From Trypanosoma brucei (lineage: Eukaryota), in NCBI GenBank assembly GCA_000002445.1, contig CM000207.1, forward strand, positions 480,001 to 544,000: a stretch of 64,000 bases of DNA. Reading direction: 5' to 3'. The translations under genes and the position numbers were made by a program. Positions 38,901 through 59,500 of this stretch are shown in pieces. Position 1 is the first letter of the stretch; each line of letters begins with the position of its first letter. The notes under the pieces are model-generated. The model saw only the letters and a program-made list of their open reading frames with translations, was not told where the DNA came from and searched no databases.

Positions 38901-41183
38901 TTAAGATGCCTGTTGCACAGATGCATCCTCACTGCCAAGTTCCTCAACATCATTGATACTTGGCTCATCGGCGCCCGGAGCGGCTCCAGCCGCAACGTCA
39001 TTGAAGCTCAGTTCCTCAAGTTCCGCACTCGGGAGTTTGTCTGCTGGATGTTCTGCCGCTGTGGGTGCCTCACCCTCAGGGCCCGGGATATCAGAGTTGG
39101 AACCATCTGATTTCGGGGAGTCACCACCACCCAATTGTTTCATCGTTCCCGCCAGCACTTGATCCCTTCTCACAGCGGATGCCTGTCTCGACGAAGTCTG
39201 CTGTTCTCTCCTCCCACCACGGTCAAAAAAATCATCAGCTGCTTCATTATAACCAAGCAGCGCATAACCGTAGCGCACAGCAGGATCATAGTCACACCGG
39301 ACTTCAGCAATTTCCACGCACGGTTTTCGATAATCTTCATCATCTGTATAGCCATAGTCCTCATCACCGAAGTCTTCCAAAGTCTCCACCAAACCGCTTC
39401 CGGCAAAGTTCAACTCCCACATCCTTTCGCGTCGCAACTGAACCAACCACTCGTCAATACGCAGCTTGCTCATTGATTTCGTCGTTCCACCAGTTAGAGA
39501 ATGGTAGAAGGCACAAACTGTTGGGAAGGCGCAACGCTCTAGCAACGCCTGGAGTTCCTCCTTAGGGGTGCTCTTATCGTGCTCCGTAGTGAACGACGCC
39601 TCCAGTGGGTAACCCTCAAAAGTTAGGTTGGTGAAATTCTCTTTCGGCAATCTGAGTGTCGCAGATGCGTCCTCCTTAAAAGCAGCGTCCAGATATTCAC
39701 GGTGCTCCTCATTATCAAGCACTTCCTGCCACTTATCTCCAGTGAAAAATATGTGCAGATCGGAGTACACTGTGTTCTCAATCCGGCGGCGCTTCTCCAG
39801 ATACAGTTTGTCACGACCAGCCTTCTCCAAGCAGCGGCGCCGCCACACCGTCCTTTCGTGTCGACGATCCACATCCGTGAGGAAGGCATCAAGTTGCCGC
39901 ATCTCCTCCTCATCATCTTCGGTGAACAACTCCTTCTTGCTGAGCTCCTCCATGCGTAACTGCAGTTCGCGCTTCTCCTGGTCATCCCGTTCCTCGGCAG
40001 CGAAGAGAGCCTCAAGTTCGTCAATGTCGTGCAGGTCGTTGACGGTGCGAACTGTCTGCTGCATCTTCAGTACTTCTTCAGGTTGTAGTTGAACATAGAC
40101 GGGAATCTCCTTACCCAGGAGCGTCTTGCTTTCCTTCGGCCCAAAAACAAGTAAAACGCTGTCGAGTGAAACAATATCACTCACAACGCGACCGTTCGTT
40201 GTGCGTTGTACGTAGCATCCTTCAACATTGATAGGTTCCTCTTCATCATTTAGTAGATTAAGTGGTTCTTCACCAATCAAAGCCTGCTTCTTTTCGGAAA
40301 TTTGCACCCCTAACATAGCAATCATCTCACGCAGTCCGTTGACCTCGGTGATAAGAAGAGCTTGTTCTTGGAGTTGAGCGAAGCAACCATCAACGACGCG
40401 TTCCTCCGCCTCCCGAGCTCTTGAACACGCCATCTGCACATTCAGCCACCTCCTAATAACAACTGGAAGTGGAGCACCTTGTAGCGCCTGTGAAGATGCG
40501 CCCTTTCTCTTGCTTTCTTTCAGCGATTCGGCGGGGACCAACGCAAGCTCATTCTTTATCTTCTTCCGTTGCAGTTTCGACAGCGGTGCGACCGTGCAGT
40601 CAAGTTCCATTATCCGCCCAACAAAATCACTTTGACGCATGACAATCTGCATGCTTTCCCAACTTCCATTATGATCCTCTTGTAGGGCAATCATGAGCGC
40701 GCGGACAAGTGAAAACAGTTCCTCAGATGGTCGACCCGCTGAACGTAATTCCCTCCAACTGCGCGCGGGTACTTGTTCAATCGCGGCGCGAACTTGATCA
40801 AGCTCCACCATTTGCTGACGAGTGAACGCCGCTGCAATGGCCTGTTTTTCTTGAGTTACCTCACGGGCACGGTAGAGCCGTTCAGAAGAACGATCCTCAT
40901 CCTCCACCAGCTGCTGGTATTGCTGTTGGAGCGCTTTCAGCTCGTTCAGCCCATCAAGACGATCCTGCTGCACCGCAAGTTCACCCAGTTTTTCGTCATA
41001 CGGTTCAAACCCACCAGGCACGGCATCGACACGATCGAACAATTCGACACGAACGTGCTGACTTGTGGGCAGTCCGATAACACGAGCAAGAGTATTGCTC
41101 CACTCATAATCACCGCCAATCCGTTCCAAGCAAATGTAGTCACTTACATTGACCTCCAAACACGATCTGTTCATTCCCGTCAT
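38901..41183 (-). CDS. hypothetical coiled-coil protein, copy 1 (760 aa)
   Basis: A long ORF. Its N-terminal ~570 aa are nearly identical to the 42177..43916 ORF. It has an acidic, serine-rich C-terminal tail that is unique to this copy. Confidence 0.7.
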   Translation of the reverse strand: MTGMNRSCLEVNVSDYICLERIGGDYEWSNTLARVIGLPTSQHVRVELFDRVDAVPGGFEPYDEKLGELAVQQDRLDGLNELKALQQQYQQLVEDEDRSSERLYRAREVTQEKQAIAAAFTRQQMVELDQVRAAIEQVPARSWRELRSAGRPSEELFSLVRALMIALQEDHNGSWESMQIVMRQSDFVGRIMELDCTVAPLSKLQRKKIKNELALVPAESLKESKRKGASSQALQGAPLPVVIRRWLNVQMACSRAREAEERVVDGCFAQLQEQALLITEVNGLREMIAMLGVQISEKKQALIGEEPLNLLNDEEEPINVEGCYVQRTTNGRVVSDIVSLDSVLLVFGPKESKTLLGKEIPVYVQLQPEEVLKMQQTVRTVNDLHDIDELEALFAAEERDDQEKRELQLRMEELSKKELFTEDDEEEMRQLDAFLTDVDRRHERTVWRRRCLEKAGRDKLYLEKRRRIENTVYSDLHIFFTGDKWQEVLDNEEHREYLDAAFKEDASATLRLPKENFTNLTFEGYPLEASFTTEHDKSTPKEELQALLERCAFPTVCAFYHSLTGGTTKSMSKLRIDEWLVQLRRERMWELNFAGSGLVETLEDFGDEDYGYTDDEDYRKPCVEIAEVRCDYDPAVRYGYALLGYNEAADDFFDRGGRREQQTSSRQASAVRRDQVLAGTMKQLGGGDSPKSDGSNSDIPGPEGEAPTAAEHPADKLPSAELEELSFNDVAAGAAPGADEPSINDVEELGSEDASVQQAS

Positions 41184-41796
41184 TTACCTCAATACTCGCG
41201 TATGGTTTACTCCACGTTGACACGCGTGGTCACTACCCTCGCAGCCACGTGACGCGCACGAGGAGTTTTAACAATAAAAACTTGATAACTCTCTCCTCTG
41301 CTACTTACACTCTCAAGTAAAAAATTAACACAAACTACTTCCTACCTATTACAGTCAGTGATATGCTTAAAAAGATTAATACCTTTATTCTCTTTTCCTC
41401 TTGTCCTCAGGTTTACAGGAAAATACGAAAGGAATCAATCAATCAATCAACATATAAAGAGGATCAGCATCAACACGCATGCAACAACATGATCATCCAC
41501 GAAAAAACATCACCAAAATCACGAGCAGCCGCAGCTACAATACACACACACAAACACACAGATGCGCAAAAACGTACACCGATACCACCTTTCTATATAT
41601 GTCATAAAACAAGCAGCAACAAAAAAGCAACAGAAAAGACACAAACGCACACAAACACACAGAAATTTAAAAATGTTAAAAAACAAATCCACATAAAAAA
41701 CAGCAACAATATATATGCAAAACAGCACAATCAGCACCAACGTACAGAAGCAATATAAAATATACAAACAACAAAAGCTACACACAAAAAGTCAGT
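39476..41796. repeat. tandem segmental duplication, unit 1 (about 2.3 kb, period 2733 bp)
   Basis: Near-identical to 42209-44529. It covers the 5' ~1.7 kb of the gene plus ~600 bp of upstream A/C-rich spacer. Confidence 0.85.
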
Positions 41797-42176
41797 AAAG
41801 CAAATTAATACGTCATAAACACATAAAACAAACAGCGTAATTGCCGACACATGACGTCACCACAAAGAAGCCGAACCAGATCCAGTGGTAAAGGAGAAAT
41901 CCCATGAATTAGGGTGGCAAACCAAAGATACAAGCAAGAAAGGTGTATAAAGATTGGATACACTTCCAACGCTAACACCATCTAACTGTGAGAAAACAAT
42001 CAGAGGTGCAATTCAATAAGAAATCGCCTGCAGCAGGTAAATAGCATTTTAAAAATGAAAATGCAAAATTAACAAATGAAAGGTTGCAAAGTTACGTAAA
42101 ACTGTTAAACTACAAGCGGTATTTAGGAATAGAAAAAAAAAATTACGACACAACGATAAAGAAACTTTTCAAGGAA

Positions 42177-43916
42177 CTATCCATCAACGTCCTCCCCTTC
42201 CACTGATTCCGTCGTTCCACCAGTTAGAGAATGGTAGAAGGCACAAACTGTTGGGAAGGCGCAACGCTCTAGCAACGCCTGGAGTTCCTCCTTAGGGGTG
42301 CTCTTATCGTGCTCCGTAGTGAACGACGCCTCCAGTGGGTAACCCTCAAAAGTTAGGTTGGTGAAATTCTCTTTCGGTAATCTGAGTGTCGCAGATGCGT
42401 CCTCCTTAAAAGCAGCGTCCAGATATTCACGGTGCTCCTCATTATCAAGCACTTCCTGCCACTTATCTCCAGTGAAAAATATGTGCAGATCGGAGTACAC
42501 TATGTTCTCAATCCGGCGGCGCTTCTCCAGATACAGTTTGTCACGACCAGCCTTCTCCAAGCAGCGGCGCCGCCACACCGTCCTTTCGTGTCGACGATCC
42601 ACATCCGTGAGGAAGGCATCAAGTTGCCGCATCTCCTCCTCATCATCTTCGGTGAACAACTCCTTCTTGCTGAGCTCCTCCATGCGTAACTGCAGTTCGC
42701 GCTTCTCCTGGTCATCCCGTTCCTCGGCAGCGAAGAGAGCCTCAAGTTCGTCAATGTCGTACAGGTCGTTGACGGTGCGAACTGTCTGCTGCATCTTCAG
42801 TACTTCTTCAGGTTGTAGTTGAACATAGACGGGAATCTCCTTACCCAGGAGCGTCTTGCTTTCCTTCGGCCCAAAAACAAGTAAAACGCTGTCGAGTGAA
42901 ACAATATCACTCACAACGCGACCGTTCGTTGTGCGTTGTACGTAGCATCCTTCAACATTGATAGGTTCCTCTTCATCATTTAGTAGATTAAGTGGTTCTT
43001 CACCAATCAAAGCCTGCTTCTTTTCGGAAATTTGCACCCCTAACATAGCAATCTTCCCACGCAGTCCGTTGACCTCGGACAGCAGCGCAGCTATTCGGTC
43101 ATGTTTCACAACCAATCGATCAGCGACGCGTTCCTCCGCCTCCCGAGCTCTTGAACACGCCATCTGCACATTCAGCCACCTCCTAATAACAACTGGAAGT
43201 GGAGCACCGCGCAACAATTTAGGGAATGAGTCACTCTTCCCTCTACGTTCTTTCAGCGATTCGGCGGGGACCAACGCAAGCTCGTTCTTTATCTTCTTCC
43301 GTTGCAGTTTCGACAGCGGTGCGACCGTGCAGTCAAGTTCCATTATCCGCCCAACAAAATCACTTTGACGCATGACAATCTGCATGCTTTCCCAACTTCC
43401 ATTATGATCCTCTTGTAGGGCAATCATGAGCGCGCGGACAAGTGAAAACAGTTCCTCAGAAGGATTGTTTATATTCCTAATAATCCTCCAACTGCGCGCG
43501 GGTACTTGTTCAATCGCGGCGCGAACTTGATCAAGCTCCACCATTTGCTGACGAGTGAACGCCGCTGCAATGGCCTGTTTTTCTTGAGTTACCTCACGGG
43601 CACGGCAGAGCCGTTCAGAAGAACGATCCTCATCCTCCACCAGCTGCTGGTATTGCTGTTGGAGCGCTTTCAGCTCGTTCAGCCCATCAAGACGATCCTG
43701 CTGCACCGCAAGTTCACCCAGTTTTTCGGCATACGGTTCAAACCCACCAGGCACGGCATCGACACGATCGAACAATTCGACACGAACGTGCTGACTTGTG
43801 GGCAGTCCGATAACACGAGCAAGAGTATTGCTCCACTCATAATCACCGCCAATCCGTTCCAAGCAAATGTAGTCACTTACATTGACCTCCAAACACGATC
43901 TGTTCATTCCCGTCAT
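42177..43916 (-). CDS. hypothetical coiled-coil protein, copy 2 (579 aa). It is C-terminally truncated or replaced relative to copy 1.
   Basis: Matches copy 1 at offset 2733 bp. The ORF ends ...SLTGGTTESVEGEDVDG at the duplication junction. Confidence 0.65.
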   Translation of the reverse strand: MTGMNRSCLEVNVSDYICLERIGGDYEWSNTLARVIGLPTSQHVRVELFDRVDAVPGGFEPYAEKLGELAVQQDRLDGLNELKALQQQYQQLVEDEDRSSERLCRAREVTQEKQAIAAAFTRQQMVELDQVRAAIEQVPARSWRIIRNINNPSEELFSLVRALMIALQEDHNGSWESMQIVMRQSDFVGRIMELDCTVAPLSKLQRKKIKNELALVPAESLKERRGKSDSFPKLLRGAPLPVVIRRWLNVQMACSRAREAEERVADRLVVKHDRIAALLSEVNGLRGKIAMLGVQISEKKQALIGEEPLNLLNDEEEPINVEGCYVQRTTNGRVVSDIVSLDSVLLVFGPKESKTLLGKEIPVYVQLQPEEVLKMQQTVRTVNDLYDIDELEALFAAEERDDQEKRELQLRMEELSKKELFTEDDEEEMRQLDAFLTDVDRRHERTVWRRRCLEKAGRDKLYLEKRRRIENIVYSDLHIFFTGDKWQEVLDNEEHREYLDAAFKEDASATLRLPKENFTNLTFEGYPLEASFTTEHDKSTPKEELQALLERCAFPTVCAFYHSLTGGTTESVEGEDVDG

Positions 43917-44529
43917 TTACCTCAATACTCGCGTATGGTTTACTCCACGTTGACACGCGTGGTCACTACCCTCGCAGCCACGTGACGCGCACGAGGAGTT
44001 TTAACAATAAAAACTTGATAACTCTCTCCTCTGCTACTTACACTCTCAAGTAAAAAATTAACACAAACTACTTCCTACCTATTACAGTCAGTGATATGCT
44101 TAAAAAGATTAATACCTTTATTCTCTTTTCCTCTTGTCCTCAGGTTTACAGGAAAATACGAAAGGAATCAATCAATCAATCAACATATAAAGAGGATCAG
44201 CATCAACACGCATGCAACAACATGATCATCCACGAAAAAACATCACCAAAATCACGAGCAGCCGCAGCTACAATACACACACACAAACACACAGATGCGC
44301 AAAAACGTACACCGATACCACCTTTCTATATATGTCATAAAACAAGCAGCAACAAAAAAGCAACAGAAAAGAAACAAACGCACACAAACACACAGAAATT
44401 TAAAAATGTTAAAAAACAAATCCACATAAAAAAAAGCAACAATATATATGCAAAACAGCACAATCAGCACCAACGTACAGAAGCAATATAAAATATACAA
44501 ACAACAAAAGCTACACACAAAAAGTCAAT
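42209..44529. repeat. tandem segmental duplication, unit 2
   Basis: See unit 1. Its upstream boundary (44529) coincides with the stop codon of the giant repeat gene. Confidence 0.85.
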
Positions 44530-47500
44530 AAAGCATCCACACAGCAGTGTATGGACACTCGTGGAGACTCTCATCAATATCATCCTTCTTTAGGTTGTGT
44601 GGTGGGGTTATGGTAAATTCAAGTTTTAGCATTTCCTCGCTGTAACTCACCACCAAGTCCTGCACCTGTTCCTCATTAAGATGCAACTGAGCAGCCGTTT
44701 CTTTGGTAAAGGCACTTACGACATCAGGTTTCCTCTTCTCCAAAACATAATCCCAGTCCTCACCCTCAAACCCAACATAGTGTTTCGTCACCGTTCCTGT
44801 TGCAGAAGATGAATCCTTCATCATAGCCGCACGTGCAGCGGAAGCACGTGGCACATATAGTGACCACATCTCAGAGAAGGGGCATGCAGCAAGGGTACTT
44901 AATATATCAGCATCATTTAATGAGCACCCAATGACTTTATAATCAATCAACAGACTTCCGAGTCGGCAATCAATGATAACCGCCTGCTGTGGAGAGACAC
45001 CGAGAACACGCGCAGCGTCATTACGGAATGCGTTCTCCAACCCTTCACGATCACCACTAAGCACAAGATCCCAATCATCTCCCTCAAATTTCTCTGTCAA
45101 TACCGATGACTCCCGTGGTCTAAGTTCATACAGCATCCACACAGCAGTGTATGGACATTCATTAAGACGCTCATCAATATCATCCTTCTTTAAGTTGTGT
45201 GGTGGGGTTATGGTAAATTCAAGTTTTAGCATTTCCTCGCTGTAACTCAGCACCAAGTCCTGCACCTGTTCCTCATTAAGATGCAACTGAGCAGCCGTTT
45301 CTTTGGTAAAGGCACTTACGACATCAGGTTTCCTCTTCTCCAAAACATAATCCCAGTCCTCACCCTCAAACCCAACATAGTGTTTCGTCACCGTTTCTGT
45401 TGCAGAAGATGAATCCTTCATCATAGCCGCACGTGCAGCGGAAGCACGTGGCACATATAGTGACCACACTTCAGAGAAGGGACATGCAGCAAGGGTACTT
45501 AATATATCAGCATCATTTAATGAGCACCCAATGACTTTATAATCAATCAACAGACTTCCGAGTCGGCAATCAATGATAACCACCTGCTGTGGAGAGACAC
45601 CGAGAACACGCGCAGCGTCATTACGGAATGCGTTCTCCAACCCTTCACGATCACCACTAAGCACAAGATCCCAATCATCTCCCTCAAATTTTTCTGTCAA
45701 TACCGATGACTCCCGTGGTCTAGATTCATACAGCATCCACACAGCAGTGTATGGACATTCATTAAGACGCTCATCAATATCATCCTTCTTTAGGTTGTGT
45801 GGTAGGGTTATGGTAAATTCAAGTTTTAGCATTTCCTCGCTGTAACTCACCACCAAGTCCTGCACCTGTTCCTCATTAAGTTGCAACTGAGCAGCCGTTT
45901 CTTTGGTAAAGGCACTTACGACATCAGGTTTCCTCTTCTCCAAAACATAATCCCAGTCCTCACCCTCAAATTCCACGTGGTGTTGCGTAACCGTTTCTGT
46001 TGCAGAAGATGAATCCTTCATCATAGCCGCACGTGCAGCGGAAGCACGTGGCACATATAGTGACCACATCTCAGAGAAGGGACATGCAGCAAGGGTACTT
46101 AATATATCAGCATCATTTAATGAGCTCCCAATGACTTTATAATCAATCAACAGACTTCCGAGTCGGCAATCAATGATAACCACCTGCTGTGGAGAGACAC
46201 CGAGAACACGCGCAGCGTCATTACGGAATGCGTTCTCCAACCCTTCACGATCACCACTAAGCACAAGATCCCAATCATCTCCCTCAAATTTTTCTGTCAA
46301 TACCGATGACTCCCGTGGTCTAGATTCATACAGCATCCACACAGCAGTGTATGGACATTCATTAAGACGCTCATCAATATCATCCTTCTTTAGGTTGTGT
46401 GGTAGGGTTATGGTAAATTCAAGTTTTAGCATTTCCTCGCTGTAACTCACCACCAAGTCCTGCACCTGTTCCTCATTAAGTTGCAACTGAGCAGCCGTTT
46501 CTTTGGTAAAGGCACTTACGACATCAGGTTTCCTCTTCTCCAAAACATAATCCCAGTCCTCACCCTCAAATTCCACGTGGTGTTGCGTAACCGTTTCTGT
46601 TGCAGAAGATGAATCCTCCATCATAGCCGCACGTGCAGCGGAAGCACGTGGCACATATAGTGACCACACCTCAGAGAAGGGACATGCAGCAAGGGTACTT
46701 AATATATCAGCATCATTTAATGAGCTCCCAATGACTTTATAATCAATTAACAGACTTCCGAGTCGGCAATCAATGATAACCACCTGCTGTGGAGAGACAC
46801 CGAGAACACGCGCAGCGTCATTACGGAATGCGTTCTCCAACCCTTCACGATCACCACTAAGCACAAGATCCCAGTCATCTCCCTCAAATTTTTCTGTCAA
46901 TACCGATGACTCCCGTGGTCTAGATTCATACAGCATCCACACAGCAGTGTATGGACATTCATTAAGACGCTCATCAATATCATCCTTCTTTAGGTTGTGT
47001 GGTAGGGTTATGGTAAATTCAAGTTTTAGCATTTCCTCGCTGTAACTCACCACCAAGTCCTGCACCTGTTCCTCATTAAGTTGCAACTGAGCAGCCGTTT
47101 CTTTGGTAAAGGCACTTACGACATCAGGTTTCCTCTTCTCCAAAACATAATCCCAGTCCTCACCCTCAAATTCCACGTGGTGTTGCGTAACCGTTTCTGT
47201 TGCAGAAGATGAATCCTCCATCATAGCCGCACGTGCAGCGGAAGCACGTGGCACATATAGTGACCACATCTCAGAGAAGGGACATGCAGCAAGGGTACTT
47301 AATATATCAGCATCATTTAATGAGCTCCCAATGACTTTATAATCAATCAACAGACTTCCGAGTCGGCAATCAATGATAACCACCTGCTGTGGAGAGACAC
47401 CGAGAACACGCGCAGCGTCATTACGGAATGCGTTCTCCAACCCTTCACGATCACCACTAAGCACAAGATCCCAATCATCTCCCTCAAATTTTTCTGTCAG

Positions 47501-50500
47501 TACCGATGACTCCCGTGGTCTAGATTCATACAGCATCCACACAGCAGTGTATGGACATTCATTAAGACGCTCATCAATATCATCCTTCTTTAGGTTGTGT
47601 GGTAGGGTTATGGTAAATTCAAGTTTTAGCATTTCCTCGCTGTAACTCACCACCAAGTCCTGCACCTGTTCCTCATTAAGTTGCAACTGAGCAGCCGTTT
47701 CTTTGGTAAAGGCACTTACGACATCAGGTTTCCTCTTCTCCAAAACATAATCCCAGTCCTCACCCTCAAATTCCACGTGGTGTTGCGTAACCGTTTCTGT
47801 TGCAGAAGATGAATCCTTCATCATAGCCGCACGTGCAGCGGAAGCACGTGGCACATATAGTGACCACACCTCAGAGAAGGGACATGCAGCAAGGGTACTT
47901 AATATATCAGCATCATTTAATGAGCACCCAATGACTTTATAATCAATCAACAGACTTCCGAGTCGGCAATCAATGATAACCACCTGCTGTGGAGAGACAC
48001 CGAGAACACGCGCAGCGTCATTACGGAATGCGTTCTCCAACCCTTCACGATCACCACTAAGCACAAGATCCCAATCATCTCCCTCAAATTTCTCTGTCAA
48101 TACCGATGACTCCCGTGGTCTAGATTCATACAGCATCCACACAGCAGTGTATGGACATTCATTAAGACGCTCATCAACATCATCCTTCTTTAGGTTGTGT
48201 GGTAGGGTTATGGTAAATTCAAGTTTTAGCATTTCCTCGCTGTAACTCACCACCAAGTCCTGCACCTGTTCCTCATTAAGTTGCAACTGAGCAGCCGTTT
48301 CTTTGGTAAAGGCACTTACGACATCAGGTTTCCTCTTCTCCAAAACATAATCCCAGTCCTCACCCTCAAATTCCACGTGGTGTTGCGTAACCGTTTCTGT
48401 TGCAGAAGATGAATCCTCCATCATAGCCGCACGTGCAGCGGAAGCACGTGGCACATATAGTGACCACACCTCAGAGAAGGGACATGCAGCAAGGGTACTT
48501 AATATATCAGCATCATTTAATGAGCACCCAATGACTTTATAATCAATCAACAGACTTCCGAGTCGGCAATCAATGATAACCACCTGCTGTGGAGAGACAC
48601 CGAGAGCACACGCAGCGTCATTACGGAATGCGTTCTCCAACCCTTCACGATCACCACTAAGCACAAGATCCCAGTCATCTCCCTCAAATTTTTCTGTCAA
48701 TACCGATGACTCCCGTGGTCTAGGTTCATACAGCATCCACACAGCAGTGTATGGACATTCGTGGAGACGCTCATCAATATCATCCTTCTGTAGGTTGTGT
48801 GGTAGGGTTATGGTAAATTCAAGTTTTAGCATTTCCTCGCTGTAACTCACCACCAAGTCCTGCACCTGTTCCTCATTAAGTTGCAACTGAGCAGCCGTTT
48901 CTTTGGTAAAGGCACTTACGACATCAGGTTTCCTCTTCTCCAAAACATAATCCCAGTCCTCACCCTCAAATTCCACGTGGTGTTGCGTAACCGTTTCTGT
49001 TGCAGAAGATGAATCCTCCATCATAGCCGCACGTGCAGCGGAAGCACGTGGCACATATAGTGACCACATCTCAGAGAAGGGACATGCAGCAAGGGTACTT
49101 AATATATCAGCATCATTTAATGAGCACCCAATGACTTTATAATCAATCAACAGACTTCCGAGTCGGCAATCAATGATAACCACCTGCTGTGGAGAGACAC
49201 CGAGAGCACGCGCAGCGTCATTACGGAATGCGTTCTCCAACCCTTCACGATCACCACTAAGCACAAGATCCCAATCATCTCCCTCAAATTTCTCTGTCAA
49301 TACCGATGACTCCCGTGGTCTAGATTCATACAGCATCCACACAGCAGTGTATGGACATTCATTAAGACGCTCATCAATATCATCCTTCTTTAGGTTGTGT
49401 GGTAGGGTTATGGTAAATTCAAGTTTTAGCATTTCCTCGCTGTAACTCACCACCAAGTCCTGCACCTGTTCCTCATTAAGTTGCAACTGAGCAGCCGTTT
49501 CTTTGGTAAAGGCACTTACGACATCAGGTTTCCTCTTCTCCAAAACATAATCCCAGTCCTCACCCTCAAATTCCACGTGGTGTTGCGTAACCGTTTCTGT
49601 TGCAGAAGATGAATCCTCCATCATAGCCGCACGTGCAGCGGAAGCACGTGGCACATATAGTGACCACACCTCAGAGAAGGGACATGCAGCAAGGGTACTT
49701 AATATATCAGCATCATTTAATGAGCACCCAATGACTTTATAATCAATCAACAGACTTCCGAGTCGGCAATCAATGATAACCACCTGCTGTGGAGAGACAC
49801 CGAGAGCACACGCAGCGTCATTACGGAATGCGTTCTCCAACCCTTCACGATCACCACTAAGCACAAGATCCCAATCATCTCCCTCAAATTTCTCTGTCAA
49901 TACCGATGACTCCCGTGGTCTAGATTCATACAGCATCCACACAGCAGTGTATGGACATTCATTAAGACGCTCATCAACATCATCCTTCTTTAGGTTGTGT
50001 GGTAGGGTTATGGTAAATTCAAGTTTTAGCATTTCCTCGCTGTAACTCACCACCAAGTCCTGCACCTGTTCCTCATTAAGTTGCAACTGAGCAGCCGTTT
50101 CTTTGGTAAAGGCACTTACGACATCAGGTTTCCTCTTCTCCAAAACATAATCCCAGTCCTCACCCTCAAATTCCACGTGGTGTTGCGTAACCGTTTCTGT
50201 TGCAGAAGATGAATCCTCCATCATAGCCGCACGTGCAGCGGAAGCACGTGGCACATATAGTGACCACACCTCAGAGAAGGGACATGCAGCAAGGGTACTT
50301 AATATATCAGCATCATTTAATGAGCACCCAGTGACTTTATAATCAATCAACAGACTTCCGAGTCGGCAATCAATGATAACCACCTGCTGTGGAGAGACAC
50401 CGAGAACACGCGCAGCGTCATTACGGAATGCGTTCTCCAACCCTTCACGATCACCACTAAGCACAAGATCCCAATCATCTCCCTCAAATTTTTCTGTCAG

Positions 50501-53500
50501 TACCGATGACTCCCGTGGTCTAGGTTCATACAGCATCCACACAGCAGTGTATGGACATTCGTGGAGACGCTCATCAATATCATCCTTCTTTAGGTTGTGT
50601 GGTGGGGTTATGGTAAATTCAAGTTTTAGCATTTCCTCGCTGTAACTCACCACCAAGTCCTGCACCTGTTCCTCATTAAGTTGCAACTGAGCAGCCGTTT
50701 CTTTGGTAAAGGCACTTACGACATCAGGTTTCCTCTTCTCCAAAACATAATCCCAGTCCTCACCCTCAAATTCCACGTGGTGTTGCGTAACCGTTTCTGT
50801 TGCAGAAGATGAATCCTCCATCATAGCCGCACGTGCAGCGGAAGCACGTGGCACATATAGTGACCACACCTCAGAGAAGGGACATGCAGCAAGGTTACTT
50901 AATATATCAGCATCATTTAATGAGCACCCAATGACTTTATAATCAATCAACAGACTTCCGAGTCGGCAATCAATGATAACCACCTGCTGTGGAGAGACAC
51001 CGAGAGCACGCGCAGCGTCATTACGGAATGCGTTCTCCAACCCTTCACGATCACCACTAAGCACAAGATCCCAATCATCTCCCTCAAATTTTTCTGTCAA
51101 TACCGATGACTCCCGTGGTCTAGATTCATACAGCATCCACACAGCAGTGTATGGACATTCATTAAGACGCTCATCAACATCATCCTTCTTTAGGTTGTGT
51201 GGTAGGGTTATGGTAAATTCAAGTTTTAGCATTTCCTCGCTGTAACTCACCACCAAGTCCTGCACCTGTTCCTCATTAAGTTGCAACTGAGCAGCCGTTT
51301 CTTTGGTAAAGGCACTTACGACATCAGGTTTCCTCTTCTCCAAAACATAATCCCAGTCCTCACCCTCAAATTCCACGTGGTGTTGCGTAACCGTTTCTGT
51401 TGCAGAAGATGAATCCTTCATCATAGCCGCACGTGCAGCGGAAGCACGTGGCACATATAGTGACCACACTTCAGAGAAGGGACATGCAGCAAGGGTACTT
51501 AATATATCAGCATCATTTAATGAGCACCCAATGACTTTATAATCAATCAACAGACTTCCGAGTCGGCAATCAATGATAACCACCTGCTGTGGAGAGACAC
51601 CGAGAGCACGCGCAGCGTCATTACGGAATGCGTTCTCCAACCCTTCACGATCACCACTAAGCACAAGATCCCAATCATCTCCCTCAAATTTCTCTGTCAA
51701 TACCGATGACTCCCGTGGTCTAGATTCATACAGCATCCACACAGCAGTGTATGGACATTCATTAAGACGCTCATCAACATCATCCTTCTTTAGGTTGTGT
51801 GGTAGGGTTATGGTAAATTCAAGTTTTAGCATTTCCTCGCTGTAACTCACCACCAAGTCCTGCACCTGTTCCTCATTAAGTTGCAACTGAGCAGCCGTTT
51901 CTTTGGTAAAGGCACTTACGACATCAGGTTTCCTCTTCTCCAAAACATAATCCCAGTCCTCACCCTCAAATTCCACGTGGTGTTGCGTAACCGTTTCTGT
52001 TGCAGAAGATGAATCCTTCATCATAGCCGCACGTGCAGCGGAAGCACGTGGCACATATAGTGACCACACCTCAGAGAAGGGACATGCAGCAAGGGTACTT
52101 AATATATCAGCATCATTTAATGAGCACCCAATGACTTTATAATCAATCAACAGACTTCCGAGTCGGCAATCAATGATAACCACCTGCTGTGGAGAGACAC
52201 CGAGAACACGCGCAGCGTCATTACGGAATGCGTTCTCCAACCCTTCACGATCACCACTAAGCACAAGATCCCAATCATCTCCCTCAAATTTTTCTGTCAG
52301 TACCGATGACTCCCGTGGTCTAGATTCATACAGCATCCACACAGCAGTGTATGGACATTCATTAAGACGCTCATCAATATCATCCTTCTTTAGGTTGTGT
52401 GGTAGGGTTATGGTAAATTCAAGTTTTAGCATTTCCTCGCTGTAACTCACCACCAAGTCCTGCACCTGTTCCTCATTAAGTTGCAACTGAGCAGCCGTTT
52501 CTTTGGTAAAGGCACTTACGACATCAGGTTTCCTCTTCTCCAAAACATAATCCCAGTCCTCACCCTCAAATTCCACGTGGTGTTGCGTAACCGTTTCTGT
52601 TGCAGAAGATGAATCCTCCATCATAGCCGCACGTGCAGCGGAAGCACGTGGCACATATAGTGACCACACTTCAGAGAAGGGACATGCAGCAAGGGTACTT
52701 AATATATCAGCATCATTTAATGAGCTCCCAATGACTTTATAATCAATCAACAGACTTCCGAGTCGGCAATCAATGATAACCACCTGCTGTGGAGAGACAC
52801 CGAGAACACGCGCAGCGTCATTACGGAATGCGTTCTCCAACCCTTCACGATCACCACTAAGCACAAGATCCCAATCATCTCCCTCAAATTTTTCTGTCAG
52901 TACCGATGACTCCCGTGGTCTAGGTTCATACAGCATCCACACAGCAGTGTATGGACATTCGTGGAGACGCTCATCAATATCATCCTTCTTTAGGTTGTGT
53001 GGTGGGGTTATGGTAAATTCAAGTTTTAGCATTTCCTCGCTGTAACTCACCACCAAGTCCTGCACCTGTTCCTCATTAAGTTGCAACTGAGCAGCCGTTT
53101 CTTTGGTAAAGGCACTTACGACATCAGGTTTCCTCTTCTCCAAAACATAATCCCAGTCCTCACCCTCAAATTCCACGTGGTGTTGCGTAACCGTTTCTGT
53201 TGCAGAAGATGAATCCTTCATCATAGCCGCACGTGCAGCGGAAGCACGTGGCACATATAGTGACCACATCTCAGAGAAGGGACATGCAGCAAGGGTACTT
53301 AATATATCAGCATCATTTAATGAGCACCCAATGACTTTATAATCAATCAACAGACTTCCGAGTCGGCAATCAATGATAACCACCTGCTGTGGAGAGACAC
53401 CGAGAACACGCGCAGCGTCATTACGGAATGCGTTCTCCAACCCTTCACGATCACCACTAAGCACAAGATCCCAATCATCTCCCTCAAATTTTTCTGTCAA

Positions 53501-56500
53501 TACCGATGACTCCCGTGGTCTAGATTCATACAGCATCCACACAGCAGTGTATGGACATTCATTAAGACGCTCATCAATATCATCCTTCTTTAGGTTGTGT
53601 GGTGGGGTTATGGTAAATTCAAGTTTTAGCATTTCCTCGCTGTAACTCAGCACCAAGTCCTGCACCTGTTCCTCATTAAGATGCAACTGAGCAGCCGTTT
53701 CTTTGGTAAAGGCACTTACGACATCAGGTTTCCTCTTCTCCAAAACATAATCCCAGTCCTCACCCTCAAACCCAACATAGTGTTTCGTCACCGTTCCTGT
53801 TGCAGAAGATGAATCCTTCATCATAGCCGCACGTGCAGCGGAAGCACGTGGCACATATAGTGACCACATCTCAGAGAAGGGACATGCAGCAAGGGTACTT
53901 AATATATCAGAATCATTTAATGAGCGTCCAATGACTTTATAATCAATCAACAGACTTCCGAGTCGGCAATCAATGATAACCACCTGCTGTGGAGAGACAC
54001 CGAGAACACGCGCAGCGTCATTACGGAATGCGTTCTCCAACCCTTCACGATCACCACTAAGCACAAGATCCCAATCATCTCCCTCAAATTTTTCTGTCAA
54101 TACCGATGACTCCCGTGGTCTAGATTCATACAGCATCCACACAGCAGTGTATGGACATTCATTAAGACGCTCATCAATATCATCCTTCTTTAGGTTGTGT
54201 GGTGGGGTTATGGTAAATTCAAGTTTTAGCATTTCCTCGCTGTAACTCACCACCAAGTCCTGCACCTGTTCCTCATTAAGTTGCAACTGAGCAGCCGTTT
54301 CTTTGGTAAAGGCACTTACGACATCAGGTTTCCTCTTCTCCAAAACATAATCCCAGTCCTCACCCTCAAATTCCACGTGGTGTTGCGTAACCGTTTCTGT
54401 TGCAGAAGATGAATCCTTCATCATAGCCGCACGTGCAGCGGAAGCACGTGGCACATATAGTGACCACACTTCAGAGAAGGGACATGCAGCAAGGGTACTT
54501 AATATATCAGCATCATTTAATGAGCACCCAATGACTTTATAATCAATCAACAGACTTCCGAGTCGGCAATCAATGATAACCACCTGCTGTGGAGAGACAC
54601 CGAGAACACGCGCAGCGTCATTACGGAATGCGTTCTCCAACCCTTCACGATCACCACTAAGCACAAGATCCCAGTCATCTCCCTCAAATTTTTCTGTCAA
54701 TACCGATGACTCCCGTGGTCTAGATTCATACAGCATCCACACAGCAGTGTATGGACATTCATTAAGACGCTCATCAATATCATCCTTCTTTAGGTTGTGT
54801 GGTGGGGTTATGGTAAATTCAAGTTTTAGCATTTCCTCGCTGTAACTCACCACCAAGTCCTGCACCTGTTCCTCATTAAGTTGCAACTGAGCAGCCGTTT
54901 CTTTGGTAAAGGCACTTACGACATCAGGTTTCCTCTTCTCCAAAACATAATCCCAGTCCTCACCCTCAAATTCCACGTGGTGTTGCGTAACCGTTTCTGT
55001 TGCAGAAGATGAATCCTTCATCATAGCCGCACGTGCAGCGGAAGCACGTGGCACATATAGTGACCACATCTCAGAGAAGGGACATGCAGCAAGGGTACTT
55101 AATATATCAGAATCATTTAATGAGCACCCAATGACTTTATAATCAATCAACAGACTTCCGAGTCGGCAATCAATGATAACCACCTGCTGTGGAGAGACAC
55201 CGAGAACACGCGCAGCGTCATTACGGAATGCGTTCTCCAACCCTTCACGATCACCACTAAGCACAAGATCCCAGTCATCTCCCTCAAATTTCTCTGTCAA
55301 TACCGATGACTCCCGTGGTCTAGATTCATACAGCATCCACACAGCAGTGTATGGACATTCATTAAGACGCTCATCAATATCATCCTTCTTTAGGTTGTGT
55401 GGTAGGGTTATGGTAAATTCAAGTTTTAGCATTTCCTCGCTGTAACTCACCACCAAGTCCTGCACCTGTTCCTCATTAAGTTGCAACTGAGCAGCCGTTT
55501 CTTTGGTAAAGGCACTTACGACATCAGGTTTCCTCTTCTCCAAAACATAATCCCAGTCCTCACCCTCAAATTCCACGTGGTGTTGCGTAACCGTTTCTGT
55601 TGCAGAAGATGAATCCTTCATCATAGCCGCACGTGCAGCGGAAGCACGTGGCACATATAGTGACCACATCTCAGAGAAGGGACATGCAGCAAGGGTACTT
55701 AATATATCAGCATCATTTAATGAGCACCCAATGACTTTATAATCAATCAACAGACTTCCGAGTCGGCAATCAATGATAACCACCTGCTGTGGAGAGACAC
55801 CGAGAACACGCGCAGCGTCATTACGGAATGCGTTCTCCAACCCTTCACGATCACCACTAAGCACAAGATCCCAGTCATCTCCCTCAAATTTTTCTGTCAA
55901 TACCGATGACTCCCGTGGTCTAGATTCATACAGCATCCACACAGCAGTGTATGGACATTCATTAAGACGCTCATCAATATCATCCTTCTTTAGGTTGTGT
56001 GGTGGGGTTATGGTAAATTCAAGTTTTAGCATTTCCTCGCTGTAACTCACCACCAAGTCCTGCACCTGTTCCTCATTAAGTTGCAACTGAGCAGCCGTTT
56101 CTTTGGTAAAGGCACTTACGACATCAGGTTTCCTCTTCTCCAAAACATAATCCCAGTCCTCACCCTCAAATTCCACGTGGTGTTGCGTAACCGTTTCTGT
56201 TGCAGAAGATGAATCCTTCATCATAGCCGCACGTGCAGCGGAAGCACGTGGCACATATAGTGACCACACCTCAGAGAAGGGACATGCAGCAAGGGTACTT
56301 AATATATCAGCATCATTTAATGAGCACCCAATGACTTTATAATCAATCAACAGACTTCCGAGTCGGCAATCAATGATAACCACCTGCTGTGGAGAGACAC
56401 CGAGAACACGCGCAGCGTCATTACGGAATGCGTTCTCCAACCCTTCACGATCACCACTAAGCACAAGATCCCAGTCATCTCCCTCAAATTTTTCTGTCAA

Positions 56501-59500
56501 TACCGATGACTCCCGTGGTCTAGATTCATACAGCATCCACACAGCAGTGTATGGACATTCATTAAGACGCTCATCAATATCATCCTTCTTTAGGTTGTGT
56601 GGTGGGGTTATGGTAAATTCAAGTTTTAGCATTTCCTCGCTGTAACTCACCACCAAGTCCTGCACCTGTTCCTCATTAAGTTGCAACTGAGCAGCCGTTT
56701 CTTTGGTAAAGGCACTTACGACATCAGGTTTCCTCTTCTCCAAAACATAATCCCAGTCCTCACCCTCAAATTCCACGTGGTGTTGCGTAACCGTTTCTGT
56801 TGCAGAAGATGAATCCTTCATCATAGCCGCACGTGCAGCGGAAGCACGTGGCACATATAGTGACCACATCTCAGAGAAGGGACATGCAGCAAGGGTACTT
56901 AATATATCAGCATCATTTAATGAGCACCCAATGACTTTATAATCAATCAACAGACTTCCGAGTCGGCAATCAATGATAACCACCTGCTGTGGAGAGACAC
57001 CGAGAACACGCGCAGCGTCATTACGGAATGCGTTCTCCAACCCTTCACGATCACCACTAAGCACAAGATCCCAGTCATCTCCCTCAAATTTTTCTGTCAA
57101 TACCGATGACTCCCGTGGTCTAGATTCATACAGCATCCACACAGCAGTGTATGGACATTCATTAAGACGCTCATCAACATCATCCTTCTTTAGGTTGTGT
57201 GGTAGGGTTATGGTAAATTCAAGTTTTAGCATTTCCTCGCTGTAACTCACCACCAAGTCCTGCACCTGTTCCTCATTAAGTTGCAACTGAGCAGCCGTTT
57301 CTTTGGTAAAGGCACTTACAACATCAGGTTTCCTCTTCTCCAAAACATAATCCCAGTCCTCACCCTCAAATTCCATGTGGTGTTGCGTAACCGTTCCTGT
57401 TGCAGAAGATGAATCCTTCATCATAGCCGCACGTGCAGCGGAAGCACGTGGCACATATAGTGACCACATCTCAGAGAAGGGACATGCAGCAAGGGTACTT
57501 AATATATCAGCATCATTTAATGAGCTCCCAATGACTTTATAATCAATCAACAGACTTCCGAGTCGGCAATCAATGATAACCACCTGCTGTGGAGAGACAC
57601 CGAGAACACGCGCAGCGTCATTACGGAATGCGTTCTCCAACCCTTCACGATCACCACTAAGCACAAGATCCCAGTCATCTCCCTCAAATTTCTCTGTCAA
57701 TACCGATGACTCCCGTGGTCTAGATTCATACAGCATCCACACAGCAGTGTATGGACATTCATTAAGACGCTCATCAATATCATCCTTCTTTAGGTTGTGT
57801 GGTAGGGTTATGGTAAATTCAAGTTTTAGCATTTCCTCGCTGTAACTCACCACCAAGTCCTGCACCTGTTCCTCATTAAGTTGCAACTGAGCAGCCGTTT
57901 CTTTGGTAAAGGCACTTACGACATCAGGTTTCCTCTTCTCCAAAACATAATCCCAGTCCTCACCCTCAAATTCCACGTGGTGTTGCGTAACCGTTTCTGT
58001 TGCAGAAGATGAATCCTCCATCATAGCCGCACGTGCAGCGGAAGCACGTGGCACATATAGTGACCACATCTCAGAGAAGGGGCATGCAGCAAGGGTACTT
58101 AATATATCAGCATCATTTAATGAGCACCCAATGACTTTATAATCAATCAACAGACTTCCGAGTCGGCAATCAATGATAACCACCTGCTGTGGAGAGACAC
58201 CGAGAACACGCGCAGCGTCATTACGGAATGCGTTCTCCAACCCTTCACGATCACCACTAAGCACAAGATCCCAATCATCTCCCTCAAATTTCTCTGTCAA
58301 TACCGATGACTCCCGTGGTCTAGGTTCATACAGCATCCACACAGCAGTGTATGGACATTCGTGGAGACGCTCATCAATATCATCCTTCTTTAGGTTGTGT
58401 GGTGGGGTTATGGTAAATTCAAGTTTTAGCATTTCCTCGCTGTAACTCACCACCAAGTCCTGCACCTGTTCCTCATTAAGTTGCAACTGAGCAGCCGTTT
58501 CTTTGGTAAAGGCACTTACGACATCAGGTTTCCTCTTCTCCAAAACATAATCCCAGTCCTCACCCTCAAATTCCACGTGGTGTTGCGTAACCGTTTCTGT
58601 TGCAGAAGATGAATCCTCCATCATAGCCGCACGTGCAGCGGAAGCACGTGGCACATATAGTGACCACATCTCAGAGAAGGGACATGCAGCAAGGTTACTT
58701 AATATATCAGCATCATTTAATGAGCACCCAATGACTTTATAATCAATCAACAGACTTCCGAGTCGGCAATCAATGATAACCACCTGCTGTGGAGAGACAC
58801 CGAGAACACGCGCAGCGTCATTACGGAATGCGTTCTCCAACCCTTCACGATCACCACTAAGCACAAGATCCCAATCATCTCCCTCAAATTTTTCTGTCAG
58901 TACCGATGACTCCCGTGGTCTAGATTCATACAGCATCCACACAGCAGTGTATGGACATTCATTAAGACGCTCATCAACATCATCCTTCTTTAGGTTGTGT
59001 GGTAGGGTTATGGTAAATTCAAGTTTTAGCATTTCCTCGCTGTAACTCACCACCAAGTCCTGCACCTGTTCCTCATTAAGTTGCAACTGAGCAGCCGTTT
59101 CTTTGGTAAAGGCACTTACGACATCAGGTTTCCTCTTCTCCAAAACATAATCCCAGTCCTCACCCTCAAATTCCACGTGGTGTTGCGTAACCGTTTCTGT
59201 TGCAGAAGATGAATCCTCCATCATAGCCGCACGTGCAGCGGAAGCACGTGGCACATATAGTGACCACACTTCAGAGAAGGGACATGCAGCAAGGGTACTT
59301 AATATATCAGCATCATTTAATGAGCACCCAATGACTTTATAATCAATCAACAGACTTCCGAGTCGGCAATCAATGATAACCACCTGCTGTGGAGAGACAC
59401 CGAGAGCACGCGCAGCGTCATTACGGAATGCGTTCTCCAACCCTTCACGATCACCACTAAGCACAAGATCCCAGTCATCTCCCTCAAATTTCTCTGTCAA

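What the first reader, a model, noticed from the sequence alone, without database searches (positions are those of the whole stretch)
44500..44560. The giant array ends with an in-repeat stop, exactly at the boundary of the downstream 2.7-kb tandem duplication
The ORF terminates mid-unit (...ECPYTAVWMLY-stop) at 44525-44527, where every other unit continues ESRPRESS. Sequence identity with the 2733-bp-period duplication (unit 2, 42209-44529) begins at the same nucleotides. The protein therefore has no unique C-terminal domain in this assembly, and the array edge coincides with a duplication breakpoint. Two explanations fit this. One is a rearrangement hotspot at the array end. The other is a mis-join of the collapsed array onto the wrong copy of the downstream duplicate.
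Basis: seen in the sequence. Interest (0 to 1): 0.5.

Follow-up and report, generated by a model that had tools for sequence, protein, structure and literature searches.

The report
Natural repeat-ending stop of trypanosome GB4
The giant repeat gene is the long-known Trypanosoma brucei cytoskeletal protein GB4, and its ending inside the repeats, next to an old duplication of the neighbouring gene, is a genuine conserved feature and not an assembly error.

Summary
The minus-strand ORF 44525..>64000 ends ...ECPYTAVWMLY-TGA (44525-44527). Identity between the two downstream copies (42201-44535 and 39471-41802) starts 8 nt inside that ORF, at TGCTTTA[T/C]TGA.

The gene is GB4 (Tb09.160.1200 / Tb427tmp.160.1200) of T. 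brucei, made of 600-nt units each encoding two FAZ1_cons domains. Its lack of unique 3' sequence is already published (Kramer 2016).

A mis-join is very unlikely:
- The same junction, and the same relic in copy 1, occur in T. b. gambiense DAL972 and T. equiperdum.
- T. vivax GB4 ends at the same domain phase (...AVWVLYIFCF*) in two assemblies.
- The stop lies at a domain boundary (Pfam positions 2-90 of 93).
- T. cruzi, T. conorhini, T. theileri and three unnamed giant homologues keep a conserved unique tail. T. vivax and T. brucei lack it.

The duplication of the downstream FAZ1_cons gene (short 579 aa, long 760 aa) is also seen in T. congolense but not in T. vivax. The copies appear to evolve in concert.

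Why the duplication edge abuts the array edge is not resolved. I favour an old duplication whose detectable homology is limited by array homogenisation. A breakpoint formed at the array end remains possible.

Interest is low: the main feature is already known.

The parts
44528..64000 (-). 3' part of the GB4 coding region. It holds 32 complete 600-nt units plus a 273-nt partial unit at the window edge, and each unit encodes two FAZ1_cons (PF23398) domains. The ORF continues beyond the window.
   Evidence: Identified as GB4 from homologue names. The reported perfect repeat VVIIDCRLGSLLIDYKVI of Tb09.160.1200 occurs 30 times in the window.
44528..45127 (-). Terminal repeat unit. It is the most diverged unit: mean 96.3% identity to the others, against 98.8% among inner units. 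It is a variant subtype (KHYVGF..., ESLHECPYT).
   Evidence: Pfam FAZ1_cons covers residues 112-200 = model positions 2-90 of 93.
44525..44527 (-). GB4 stop codon TGA, immediately after ...WMLY.
44525..44535 (-). 11-nt junction motif TGCTTTATTGA, the last 8 nt of the CDS plus the stop. Identity with copy 1 begins here and identity with the canonical repeat (TGCTGTATGAA) decays here.
   Evidence: (three-way comparison).
43917..44524 (-). 608-nt intergenic region, copy 2: the GB4 3'UTR (reported as about 272 nt) plus the upstream region of the short paralogue.
   Evidence: The 3'UTR length comes from Kramer 2016. Processing sites are inferred and were not mapped here.
42177..43916 (-). Short paralogue B2 (579 aa, one FAZ1_cons domain). 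Its last 7 codons (EGEDVDG) and stop lie in spacer U.
   Evidence: The orthologous 578-aa gene is annotated in T. b. gambiense.
42201..44535 (-). Duplicated segment, copy 2 (2335 nt): junction motif, intergenic region and the first ~571 codons of B.
41803..42200 (-). Spacer U (398 nt). It is unique in the window. It supplies the B2 C-terminal tail, stop and proximal 3'UTR. Its origin is undetermined.
   Evidence: no significant similarity to the GB4 unit, the T. vivax terminal domain, the T. cruzi tail or the rest of the window. (EGEDxD motif at its first codons).
41792..41802 (-). Relic of the GB4 end at the head of copy 1: TGCTTTACTGA.
   Evidence: The identical relic is present in T. b. gambiense (L001, about 12110-12120). 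T. equiperdum L002 shows only ...TTTGCTTTAC before a run of N.
39471..41802 (-). Duplicated segment, copy 1 (2332 nt).
38901..41183 (-). Long paralogue B1 (760-aa ORF). Residues 4-760 are 100% identical to T. brucei TREU927 XP_803559. This is the ancestral form, because T. cruzi homology continues across the duplication breakpoint.

Best explanation
This is the natural 3' end of the T. brucei GB4 gene. GB4 is the giant repetitive protein of the posterior end of the subpellicular microtubule corset.

The protein is a unique N-terminal region (outside the window) followed by about 37 units of 200 aa. Each unit holds two FAZ1_cons domains. The protein ends with a complete domain: the linker codons that normally follow WMLY (GAA CTT ...) read TGA CTT here.

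This ending is found in both salivarian species examined, T. brucei and T. vivax. T. cruzi, T. conorhini, T. theileri and three giant homologues of unnamed species have a short conserved unique C-terminal tail that the two salivarian species lack.

Downstream, the neighbouring FAZ1_cons gene B and its whole upstream intergenic region exist as two direct copies. This duplication arose after T. vivax split off. It probably predates the T. brucei / T. congolense split. The copies are kept about 99.5% alike by gene conversion.

Shown here: the coordinates, the gene identity, conservation of the junction, the domain phase, the tail's absence in T. vivax and T. brucei, the species distribution of the duplication, and the mosaic exchange between copies.

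Inferred: why the edges coincide. The GB4 array and the B duplication are two separately homogenised sequence families that abut. The duplicated segment originally started at or upstream of the GB4 stop. Anything upstream of the last ~10 nt is overwritten by repeat homogenisation on the GB4 side and has decayed as non-coding spacer U on the other side. The only detectable copy-to-copy homology therefore begins at the array edge.
For: Identity:
- The downstream 760-aa ORF is 100% identical to TREU927 XP_803559.
- Homologues of the repeat unit are named Gb4 in T. vivax, T. theileri, T. conorhini, T. cruzi marinkellei, Leptomonas, Angomonas and Strigomonas.
- Gb4 Tb09.160.1200 is reported as 8214 aa with 35 x VVIIDCRLGSLLIDYKVI. 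This peptide occurs 30 times in the window.
- C-terminal in situ PTP tagging of GB4 labels the cell posterior.

Junction conserved:
- T. b. gambiense L001 aligns colinearly to window 47726-34000 at 97.9% over 13.8 kb.
- GGATGCTTTATTGACTTTTTG occurs identically at the array end of T. b. gambiense and T. equiperdum. The full copy-1 relic TTTGCTTTACTGACTTTTTG is identical in T. b. gambiense. In T. equiperdum the sequence reads ...TTTGCTTTAC and then enters a run of N.

Domain phase:
- Pfam FAZ1_cons covers model positions 2-90 of 93 in the last domain of both T. brucei and T. vivax.
- T. vivax ends ...AVWVLYIFCF* in the Y486 contig and in a long-read assembly.

Ancestral tail:
- T. cruzi ends ...ETRPLESS plus 57 unique aa.
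- The motif [LI][TA][FY]LRxALxxARxERD also occurs at the C-termini of P0014-16, P0030 (T. theileri) and P0055 (T. conorhini).

Duplication age and concerted evolution:
- T. vivax has one B copy.
- T. congolense has long (767 aa) and short (578 aa, plus a 292-aa fragment) copies that diverge within 4 codons of the T. brucei breakpoint.
- Paralogues are 94-96% identical within a species but 66-70% between species.
- Three divergent patches sit in opposite copies in the window and in DAL972.

Terminal-unit turnover with a fixed junction:
- The window's last unit is a 96% variant. The gambiense last unit is 99% canonical. The last 10 nt are the same in both.
Against: - The reason for the coincidence is inferred, not shown. 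Spacer U has no statistically detectable similarity to a GB4 unit or to the T. vivax terminal domain. The claim that U descends from GB4 sequence therefore rests on two things. One is the 11-nt relic at its 3' end. The other is a post hoc motif (EGEDVD) at its 5' end.
- U is 398 nt. This fits neither one domain (about 243 nt) nor a full unit.
- T. congolense DNA could not be retrieved. A single origin of the duplication is inferred from protein ends only.
- DAL972 was scaffolded with TREU927 as guide (my own knowledge), so it is not fully independent in contig order. The junction lies within contiguous sequence about 3.6 kb from the nearest gap.
Confidence: 0.8

Rival explanations
1. Assembly artefact: a collapsed GB4 array was joined to the wrong copy of the downstream duplicate, so the in-repeat stop and the coincidence are not real.
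For: Near-identical 600-nt units (98.6% mean) and two 2.3-kb copies about 99.5% alike are hard to assemble. DAL972 has a 100-N gap inside the array, and T. equiperdum collapses the two B copies. The patch haplotypes are swapped between the window and DAL972, which could reflect a copy mix-up in one assembly.
Against: The identical array-to-intergenic junction is present in DAL972 and T. equiperdum. The full copy-1 junction is present in DAL972 and partly, up to a gap, in T. equiperdum. The copy-specific TAT/TAC variant is kept. Copy 1 carries a relic of the GB4 end, so that end existed when the duplication formed. Kramer 2016 describes the same structure in Lister 427, and C-terminal endogenous tagging works. 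T. vivax ends at the same phase in two assemblies. The window holds at least 32.5 units, against 37 reported, so the array is not collapsed.
Confidence: 0.03
2. Breakpoint at the array end (the 'hotspot' reading). The duplication was created by a repair or replication event (microhomology-mediated end joining or template switching). Its 5' breakpoint fell 8 nt before the GB4 stop because the array edge is fragile. U would then be 398 nt of filler or captured DNA at the novel junction. If T. brucei and T. congolense duplicated independently, the site would be recurrent.
For: The copy-1 relic TGCTTTACTGA shares the terminal unit's derived CTT codon and the TGA, so it was copied from the GB4 end. 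U has no detectable homology to GB4 or to anything else in the window, as expected for filler. The T. congolense and T. brucei short forms break 3-4 codons apart and have different tails (NSV* against EGEDVDG*). T. congolense appears to have an extra short copy. T. brucei relies on microhomology-mediated joining and homologous recombination and lacks classical NHEJ (my own knowledge).
Against: One event is not a hotspot. A short/long pair with nearly the same truncation point in two species is more simply one old event followed by concerted evolution. A 398-nt filler is unusually long. The EG[ED]D.D motif is rare: it occurs twice in about 89,000 codon positions outside the array. One of those two occurrences is exactly at the start of U, which hints that U is not random filler.
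Confidence: 0.25
3. Duplication of [U + intergenic + B 5' part], followed by deletion. U-like sequence originally lay between the GB4 stop and the present intergenic region as part of a longer GB4 3'UTR. The 2733-nt unit duplicated in tandem. The upstream U copy was then lost by a microhomology-mediated deletion between two TGCTTTAYTGA-like sites.
For: The long B form is ancestral. In a simple tandem duplication the novel junction would therefore be B5'|U, and U->intergenic would be native. The T. vivax intergenic region is 907 nt, against 608 nt in T. brucei and 1006 nt for U plus intergenic. Any such deletion would automatically make the array edge the start of homology.
Against: It needs a chance 10/11-nt match at the end of U, or an extra event. 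There is no detectable similarity between U and the T. vivax intergenic region (score 24, shuffle mean 26). The derived CTT/TGA in the copy-1 relic looks copied from GB4 and not coincidental.
Confidence: 0.1

Closest known systems
GB4 / Gb4 of Trypanosoma brucei (Tb09.160.1200, Tb427tmp.160.1200; Rindisbacher et al. 1993 as cited in PMC13544905; Kramer 2016 PMC5397161)
   Same: It is this gene. It has 600-nt repeats, the reported perfect repeat peptide, no unique 3' coding sequence and a short 3'UTR. The neighbouring gene is 100% identical to TREU927.
   Different: Nothing differs in kind. In the papers I read, I did not find three points described: that the stop sits at a domain boundary, that T. 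vivax and T. brucei lack the conserved tail, and that the downstream duplication starts 8 nt inside the ORF.
Gb4 orthologues of T. cruzi, T. conorhini and T. theileri, plus three giant homologues of unnamed species (P0014-16)
   Same: Giant arrays of FAZ1_cons domains. In T. cruzi the synteny is the same: Gb4, then the B gene, then SCO1, then small FAZ1_cons genes.
   Different: After the last domain and linker they end in a unique tail with the conserved motif ...[LI][TA][FY]LRxALxxARxERD.... The T. cruzi unit appears to contain three domains, by my reading. T. cruzi has a single B copy in the loci fetched.
T. vivax Gb4 (CCD20214; L005, L006)
   Same: It ends at the same phase of the same domain type (...WVLY plus 4 aa) with no unique tail.
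   Different: The terminal domain is strongly degenerate and T-rich, whereas the T. brucei terminal unit is 96-99% canonical. The downstream B gene is single copy and the intergenic region is 907 nt.
Tandem paralogues under concerted evolution by gene conversion (general phenomenon, common in trypanosomatid gene arrays; my own knowledge)
   Same: Direct repeats. Identity is much higher within a species than between species. Mosaic patches are exchanged between copies.
   Different: Here one edge of the converted segment abuts a second, independently homogenised family, the GB4 array. The two copies also differ in their 3' ends (short and long proteins).

Membership tests
GB4 (T. brucei microtubule-associated repetitive protein Gb4) | About 37 tandem 600-nt repeats forming the 3' part of one ORF | tested here: met
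   32 complete units plus a partial unit lie within the window. The period is exactly 600 nt and the ORF is open to the window edge. Kramer 2016 reports 37 repeats.
GB4 (T. brucei microtubule-associated repetitive protein Gb4) | Perfect repeat peptide VVIIDCRLGSLLIDYKVI reported for Tb09.160.1200 | tested here: met
   30 exact occurrences in the 6491 aa encoded in the window. The literature value is 35 in 8214 aa.
GB4 (T. brucei microtubule-associated repetitive protein Gb4) | No unique coding sequence at the 3' end | tested here: met
   The stop follows WMLY of the last unit. This is stated by Kramer 2016.
GB4 (T. brucei microtubule-associated repetitive protein Gb4) | 2256-nt unique 5' region | not testable with these tools
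   It lies beyond window position 64000.
GB4 (T. brucei microtubule-associated repetitive protein Gb4) | Localisation to the posterior end (microtubule plus ends) of the cytoskeleton | not testable with these tools
   Literature only.
FAZ1_cons (PF23398) domain proteins | Match to the Pfam model above the gathering score | tested here: met
   GB4, two units: 307 bits, 4 stretches. B2: 58.4 bits. B1: 58.2 bits. The cut-off is 27.5 bits. Terminal unit: 152.5 bits.
Old tandem duplication under concerted evolution | Paralogues are more alike within a species than orthologues between species, and the same architecture is seen in two species | tested here: met
   Within species: 93.8% (T. brucei) and 96.0% (T. 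congolense). Between species: 66-70%. A short and a long form are present in both. T. vivax has a single copy.
Old tandem duplication under concerted evolution | Direct evidence of sequence exchange between copies | tested here: inconclusive
   The three divergent patches sit in opposite copies in the window and in DAL972. This could be real exchange or a copy mix-up in one assembly.
Assembly mis-join of a collapsed array | The junction is not reproduced in independent assemblies or related taxa | tested here: not met
   The junction is identical in DAL972 and T. equiperdum. The same end phase is seen in two T. vivax assemblies.
Recurrent rearrangement hotspot | Two or more independent events sharing the breakpoint | tested here: inconclusive
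   Only one duplication architecture is seen. Independence of the T. congolense copies could not be tested because no DNA was on record.

The most novel reading that the evidence does not exclude
Spacer U (41803-42200) may be a fossil of the ancestral, degenerate terminal GB4 domain, of the kind T. vivax still has. On this reading it was copied when the downstream gene duplicated, while GB4's own last unit was later rewritten by repeat homogenisation up to the last ~10 nt. The locus would then be a dated record of how the edge of a giant coding array is renewed without moving its stop codon. Alternatively, T. brucei and T. congolense duplicated independently, and the array end would then be a truly recurrent breakpoint.
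Probability: 0.2. Interest if true: 0.35.

Novelty: already known. Interest (0 to 1): 0.18.

Why it matters
The result mainly prevents a false alarm. The in-repeat stop of the longest T. brucei ORF is genuine and need not be 'fixed' in assemblies or annotations.

Practical consequences:
- Nothing unique is available at the GB4 3' end for probes or primers.
- The first 608 nt downstream of the stop are duplicated 2.7 kb away. PCR, tagging or knockout constructs that use that 3'UTR have a second target, upstream of the long B paralogue.
- The short B paralogue must share the distal part of its 3'UTR with GB4. This could couple their post-transcriptional regulation (inference).

In evolutionary terms, the absence of the conserved Gb4 C-terminal tail in T. 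vivax and T. brucei is a small new observation. So is the abutting of the two homogenised families. Both may interest people working on trypanosome cytoskeletal repeat proteins.

Tried and rejected
- Tandem Repeats Finder found nothing because the period (600 nt) exceeds its 500-nt limit. The repeat finder and a script were used instead.
- Exact-protein look-ups found no record for the window's B2, B1 and SCO1, for TREU927 P0001 and for T. congolense P0002. The T. brucei reference locus and the T. congolense locus could therefore not be fetched.
- The word-index search with two GB4 units gave only two hits. The exhaustive representative search did not return the T. brucei or T. congolense GB4 proteins themselves.
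- Origin of spacer U. All of the following were at chance level:
  - blastn (word size 7) against the whole window;
  - three-frame protein alignment to the GB4 unit (138 of 500 shuffles scored as high);
  - DNA local alignment to GB4 units;
  - comparison with the T. vivax terminal domain and intergenic region;
  - a Pfam scan of its translation.
- tblastn of the T. cruzi tail against the window gave nothing in or near U, and a motif search for the conserved tail in six frames also found nothing.
- The idea that U derives from the present B1 3'UTR was rejected: no similarity.
- The idea that the short B form is ancestral was rejected, because T. cruzi homology runs through the breakpoint into the long form's C-terminal part.
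- The apparent 3-kb periodicity in the AT skew is aliasing of the 600-nt period with the 1000-nt step. It is not a higher-order repeat (inference).
Full report
**1. What is in the sequence**

All large ORFs of the window lie on the minus strand, as in a trypanosomatid polycistron. The ORF listed as 44525..63976 is open to the window edge at 64000.

It consists of 600-nt (200-aa) units: 32 complete units plus a 273-nt partial unit. Units are 98.6% identical on average. Each unit contains two FAZ1_cons (PF23398) domains.

The last unit ends ...DESLHECPYTAVWMLY followed by TGA at 44525-44527. Every other unit continues E[S/P/L]RPRESS.

Downstream in gene orientation lie, in order:

| Element | Coordinates | Note |
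|---|---|---|
| Intergenic region, copy 2 | 43917-44524 | 608 nt |
| B2 | 42177-43916 | 579-aa gene |
| Spacer U | 41803-42200 | 398 nt, unique in the window |
| Intergenic region, copy 1 | 41184-41791 | second copy |
| B1 | 38901-41183 | 760-aa gene |

The two direct copies are 42201-44535 and 39471-41802.

In gene orientation the three relevant sequences are:

- Array end: GTGTGGATGCTTTATTGACTTTTTGTG
- Head of copy 1: GTATTAATTTGCTTTACTGACTTTTTGTG
- Canonical repeat: GTGTGGATGCTGTATGAACTTAGACC

Copy-to-copy identity therefore starts at TGCTTTA[T/C]TGA, which is 8 nt inside the ORF plus the stop. Repeat periodicity fades over the same ~10 nt.

**2. Identity of the gene**

- B1 residues 4-760 are 100% identical to T. 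brucei TREU927 XP_803559.
- Homologues of the repeat unit carry the name 'microtubule-associated protein Gb4' in T. vivax, T. theileri, T. conorhini, T. cruzi marinkellei, Leptomonas, Angomonas and Strigomonas.
- Gb4 Tb09.160.1200 is reported as 8214 aa with 35 copies of VVIIDCRLGSLLIDYKVI (PMC2254594). That peptide occurs 30 times in the window's 6491 aa.
- Kramer 2016 (PMC5397161) describes the Lister 427 gene as follows. It has 2256 nt of unique 5' sequence and 37 repeats of 600 nt. [quoted passage not shown]
- A 2026 eLife paper tags GB4 C-terminally at the endogenous locus and sees the expected posterior-end signal (PMC13544905). I infer that this agrees with the annotated stop.

The central point of the finding, a giant repeat protein with no unique C-terminus, is therefore already in the literature.

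**3. Is the junction an assembly artefact?**

I could retrieve three related loci.

*T. b. gambiense DAL972 (L001).* It aligns colinearly with window 47726-34000 at 97.9% over 13.8 kb. The array-to-intergenic junction and the copy-1 junction are identical, including the copy-specific TAT/TAC difference. A 578-aa and a 761-aa gene are annotated there.

*T. equiperdum (L002).* This assembly collapses the two B copies. Its scaffold still contains the end of U up to TTTGCTTTAC, then a gap. After the gap come 74 nt of the terminal GB4 unit, TATTGA and the intergenic region.

*Internal evidence.* The relic TGCTTTACTGA at the head of copy 1 shows that the GB4 end already had this form when the duplication arose.

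The window is not a collapsed array: it holds at least 32.5 units, against 37 reported. I put the mis-join reading at about 3%.

**4. Orthologues**

*T. vivax.* Gb4 ends ...DSCDFEAVWVLYIFCF* both in the Y486 contig (L005) and in a long-read assembly (L006, stop at 9093). The last domain is degenerate and T-rich but is still a clear FAZ1_cons domain. It matches model positions 2-90 of 93, exactly as the T. brucei terminal domain does. The stop is thus at a domain boundary, at the same phase in both species.

*Other kinetoplastids.* T. cruzi Gb4 (L003, stop at 8813) continues after ...WALYETRPLESS with 57 unique residues. The core of that tail is [LI][TA][FY]LRxALxxARxERD. The same core recurs at the C-termini of T. 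conorhini P0055, T. theileri P0030 and three giant homologues of unnamed species, P0014-16. No trace of it is found in the window.

The simplest reading is that the tail was lost in the salivarian lineage, represented here by T. vivax and T. brucei. The in-repeat end would then be old and tolerated by function.

**5. The duplication**

*Which form is ancestral.* T. cruzi and T. vivax have one B gene of the long type. T. cruzi homology runs through the T. brucei breakpoint into the C-terminal part of B1. The long form is therefore ancestral and the B5'->U junction is the novel one.

*T. congolense.* It has consecutive genes of 767 aa, 578 aa and a 292-aa fragment. The 292-aa fragment ends with the same tail as the 578-aa form. 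Its long and short forms diverge after ...SMGEK, 3-4 codons from the T. brucei point.

*Identity.* Over the first 570 residues the paralogues are 93.8% (T. brucei) and 96.0% (T. congolense) identical. Between species the figure is only 66-70%.

*Mosaic structure.* At the DNA level the T. brucei copies differ at about 11 single sites in about 2200 nt. They also differ at three dense in-frame patches (copy 2: 43461-84, 43209-47, 43054-123). In DAL972 the patch haplotypes sit in the opposite copies. Two of the patch positions also differ between the T. congolense paralogues.

Together these results point to a duplication older than the T. brucei / T. congolense split and younger than the T. vivax split. 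The copies would since have been homogenised by gene conversion. Independent duplications in the two species cannot be formally excluded without T. congolense DNA.

**6. Why do the edges coincide?**

This is the only open part. Three readings fit.

*(a) Favoured: two abutting homogenised families.* The duplicated segment began at or upstream of the GB4 stop. On the GB4 side everything up to the last ~10 nt is continually rewritten by repeat homogenisation. The terminal unit is a 96% variant in the window but 99% canonical in DAL972, and the final CTTTATTGA is unchanged in both. In T. vivax the terminal domain is highly degenerate. On the other side the corresponding sequence, U, is non-coding and has decayed. 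Detectable homology can then only begin at the array edge.

One hint supports this. The motif EG[ED]D.D marks the start of every FAZ1_cons domain in GB4. It occurs only twice in about 89,000 six-frame codon positions outside the array. One of those two occurrences is at the first codons of U (B2 tail ...ESVEGEDVDG*).

That hint is post hoc. No unbiased alignment of U to GB4 is significant. U's length of 398 nt fits neither one domain nor one unit.

*(b) Breakpoint at the array end.* The breakpoint formed 8 nt before the stop and U is filler.

*(c) Duplication including U, then deletion.* The unit [U + intergenic + B5'] duplicated, and the upstream U was later lost by microhomology-mediated deletion. 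The T. vivax intergenic region is 907 nt, against 608 nt in T. brucei. It shows no similarity to U.

**7. Verdict**

The feature is the known natural end of GB4.

The new details are modest:
- The stop is at a domain boundary.
- T. vivax shares the same end phase.
- T. vivax and T. brucei lack a tail conserved in the other orthologues examined.
- The neighbouring duplication is old, evolves in concert and begins 8 nt inside the ORF.

Interest is low. The remaining question, the origin of U and whether there was one event or several, needs the T. congolense locus.

Noticed in passing
window 43461-43484, 43209-43247, 43054-43123 (copy 2) = 40728-40751, 40479-40514, 40324-40393 (copy 1); L001 equivalents: The two B paralogues are about 99.5% identical except for three short, dense, in-frame divergent patches. 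In T. b. gambiense DAL972 the two patch haplotypes sit in the opposite copies (short and long swapped). T. congolense long and short copies also differ at the first two patch positions. The cause is either reciprocal exchange or gene conversion with both haplotypes retained, or a copy mix-up in one assembly.
   Followed up: partly
window 42180-42200 (minus strand), first codons of spacer U: The B2 tail ...ESVEGEDVDG* carries the FAZ1_cons start motif EG[ED]D.D. That motif occurs only twice in six-frame translation outside the GB4 array. DNA and protein alignments of U to GB4 are nevertheless at chance level.
   Followed up: yes
window 30837-31433, 32261-32845, 38901-41183, 42177-43916, 44525-64000 (all minus strand): The locus is a cluster of FAZ1_cons-domain genes interrupted by SCO1 (35916-37076): GB4, two B paralogues, and ORFs of 194 aa and 198 aa. 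The 194-aa and 198-aa ORFs are annotated with FAZ1_cons in the T. b. gambiense and T. equiperdum gene tables. The same order is seen in T. cruzi (L003).
   Followed up: partly
window 44528-45727 and about 53528-54127 (units T1, T2 and T16 counted from the 3' end): A variant unit subtype (KHYVGFEGEDWDY..., AQLHLNEEQ) is found in the last two units and once in the middle of the array. The DAL972 assembly has a canonical last unit. The degenerate T. vivax terminal domain also has VGF where its inner units have VEF.
   Followed up: partly
L003:8643-8813 (T. cruzi); C-termini of P0014, P0015, P0016, P0030, P0055: Gb4 orthologues other than those of T. vivax and T. brucei share a short conserved C-terminal motif, ...[LI][TA][FY]LRxALxxARxERD..., after the last domain. 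I did not find it described in the papers read. It is absent from T. vivax and T. brucei Gb4.
   Followed up: partly
GB4 and the short B gene must therefore share distal 3'UTR sequence.
   Followed up: yes
L004:1-10000 (T. cruzi, second strain): In this assembly the region upstream of the B orthologue contains only fragments of the Gb4 array (genes of 780 aa and 451 aa, the latter ending at an ambiguous base). It does not contain the continuous ORF seen in L003. This probably reflects assembly fragmentation of the array.
   Followed up: no
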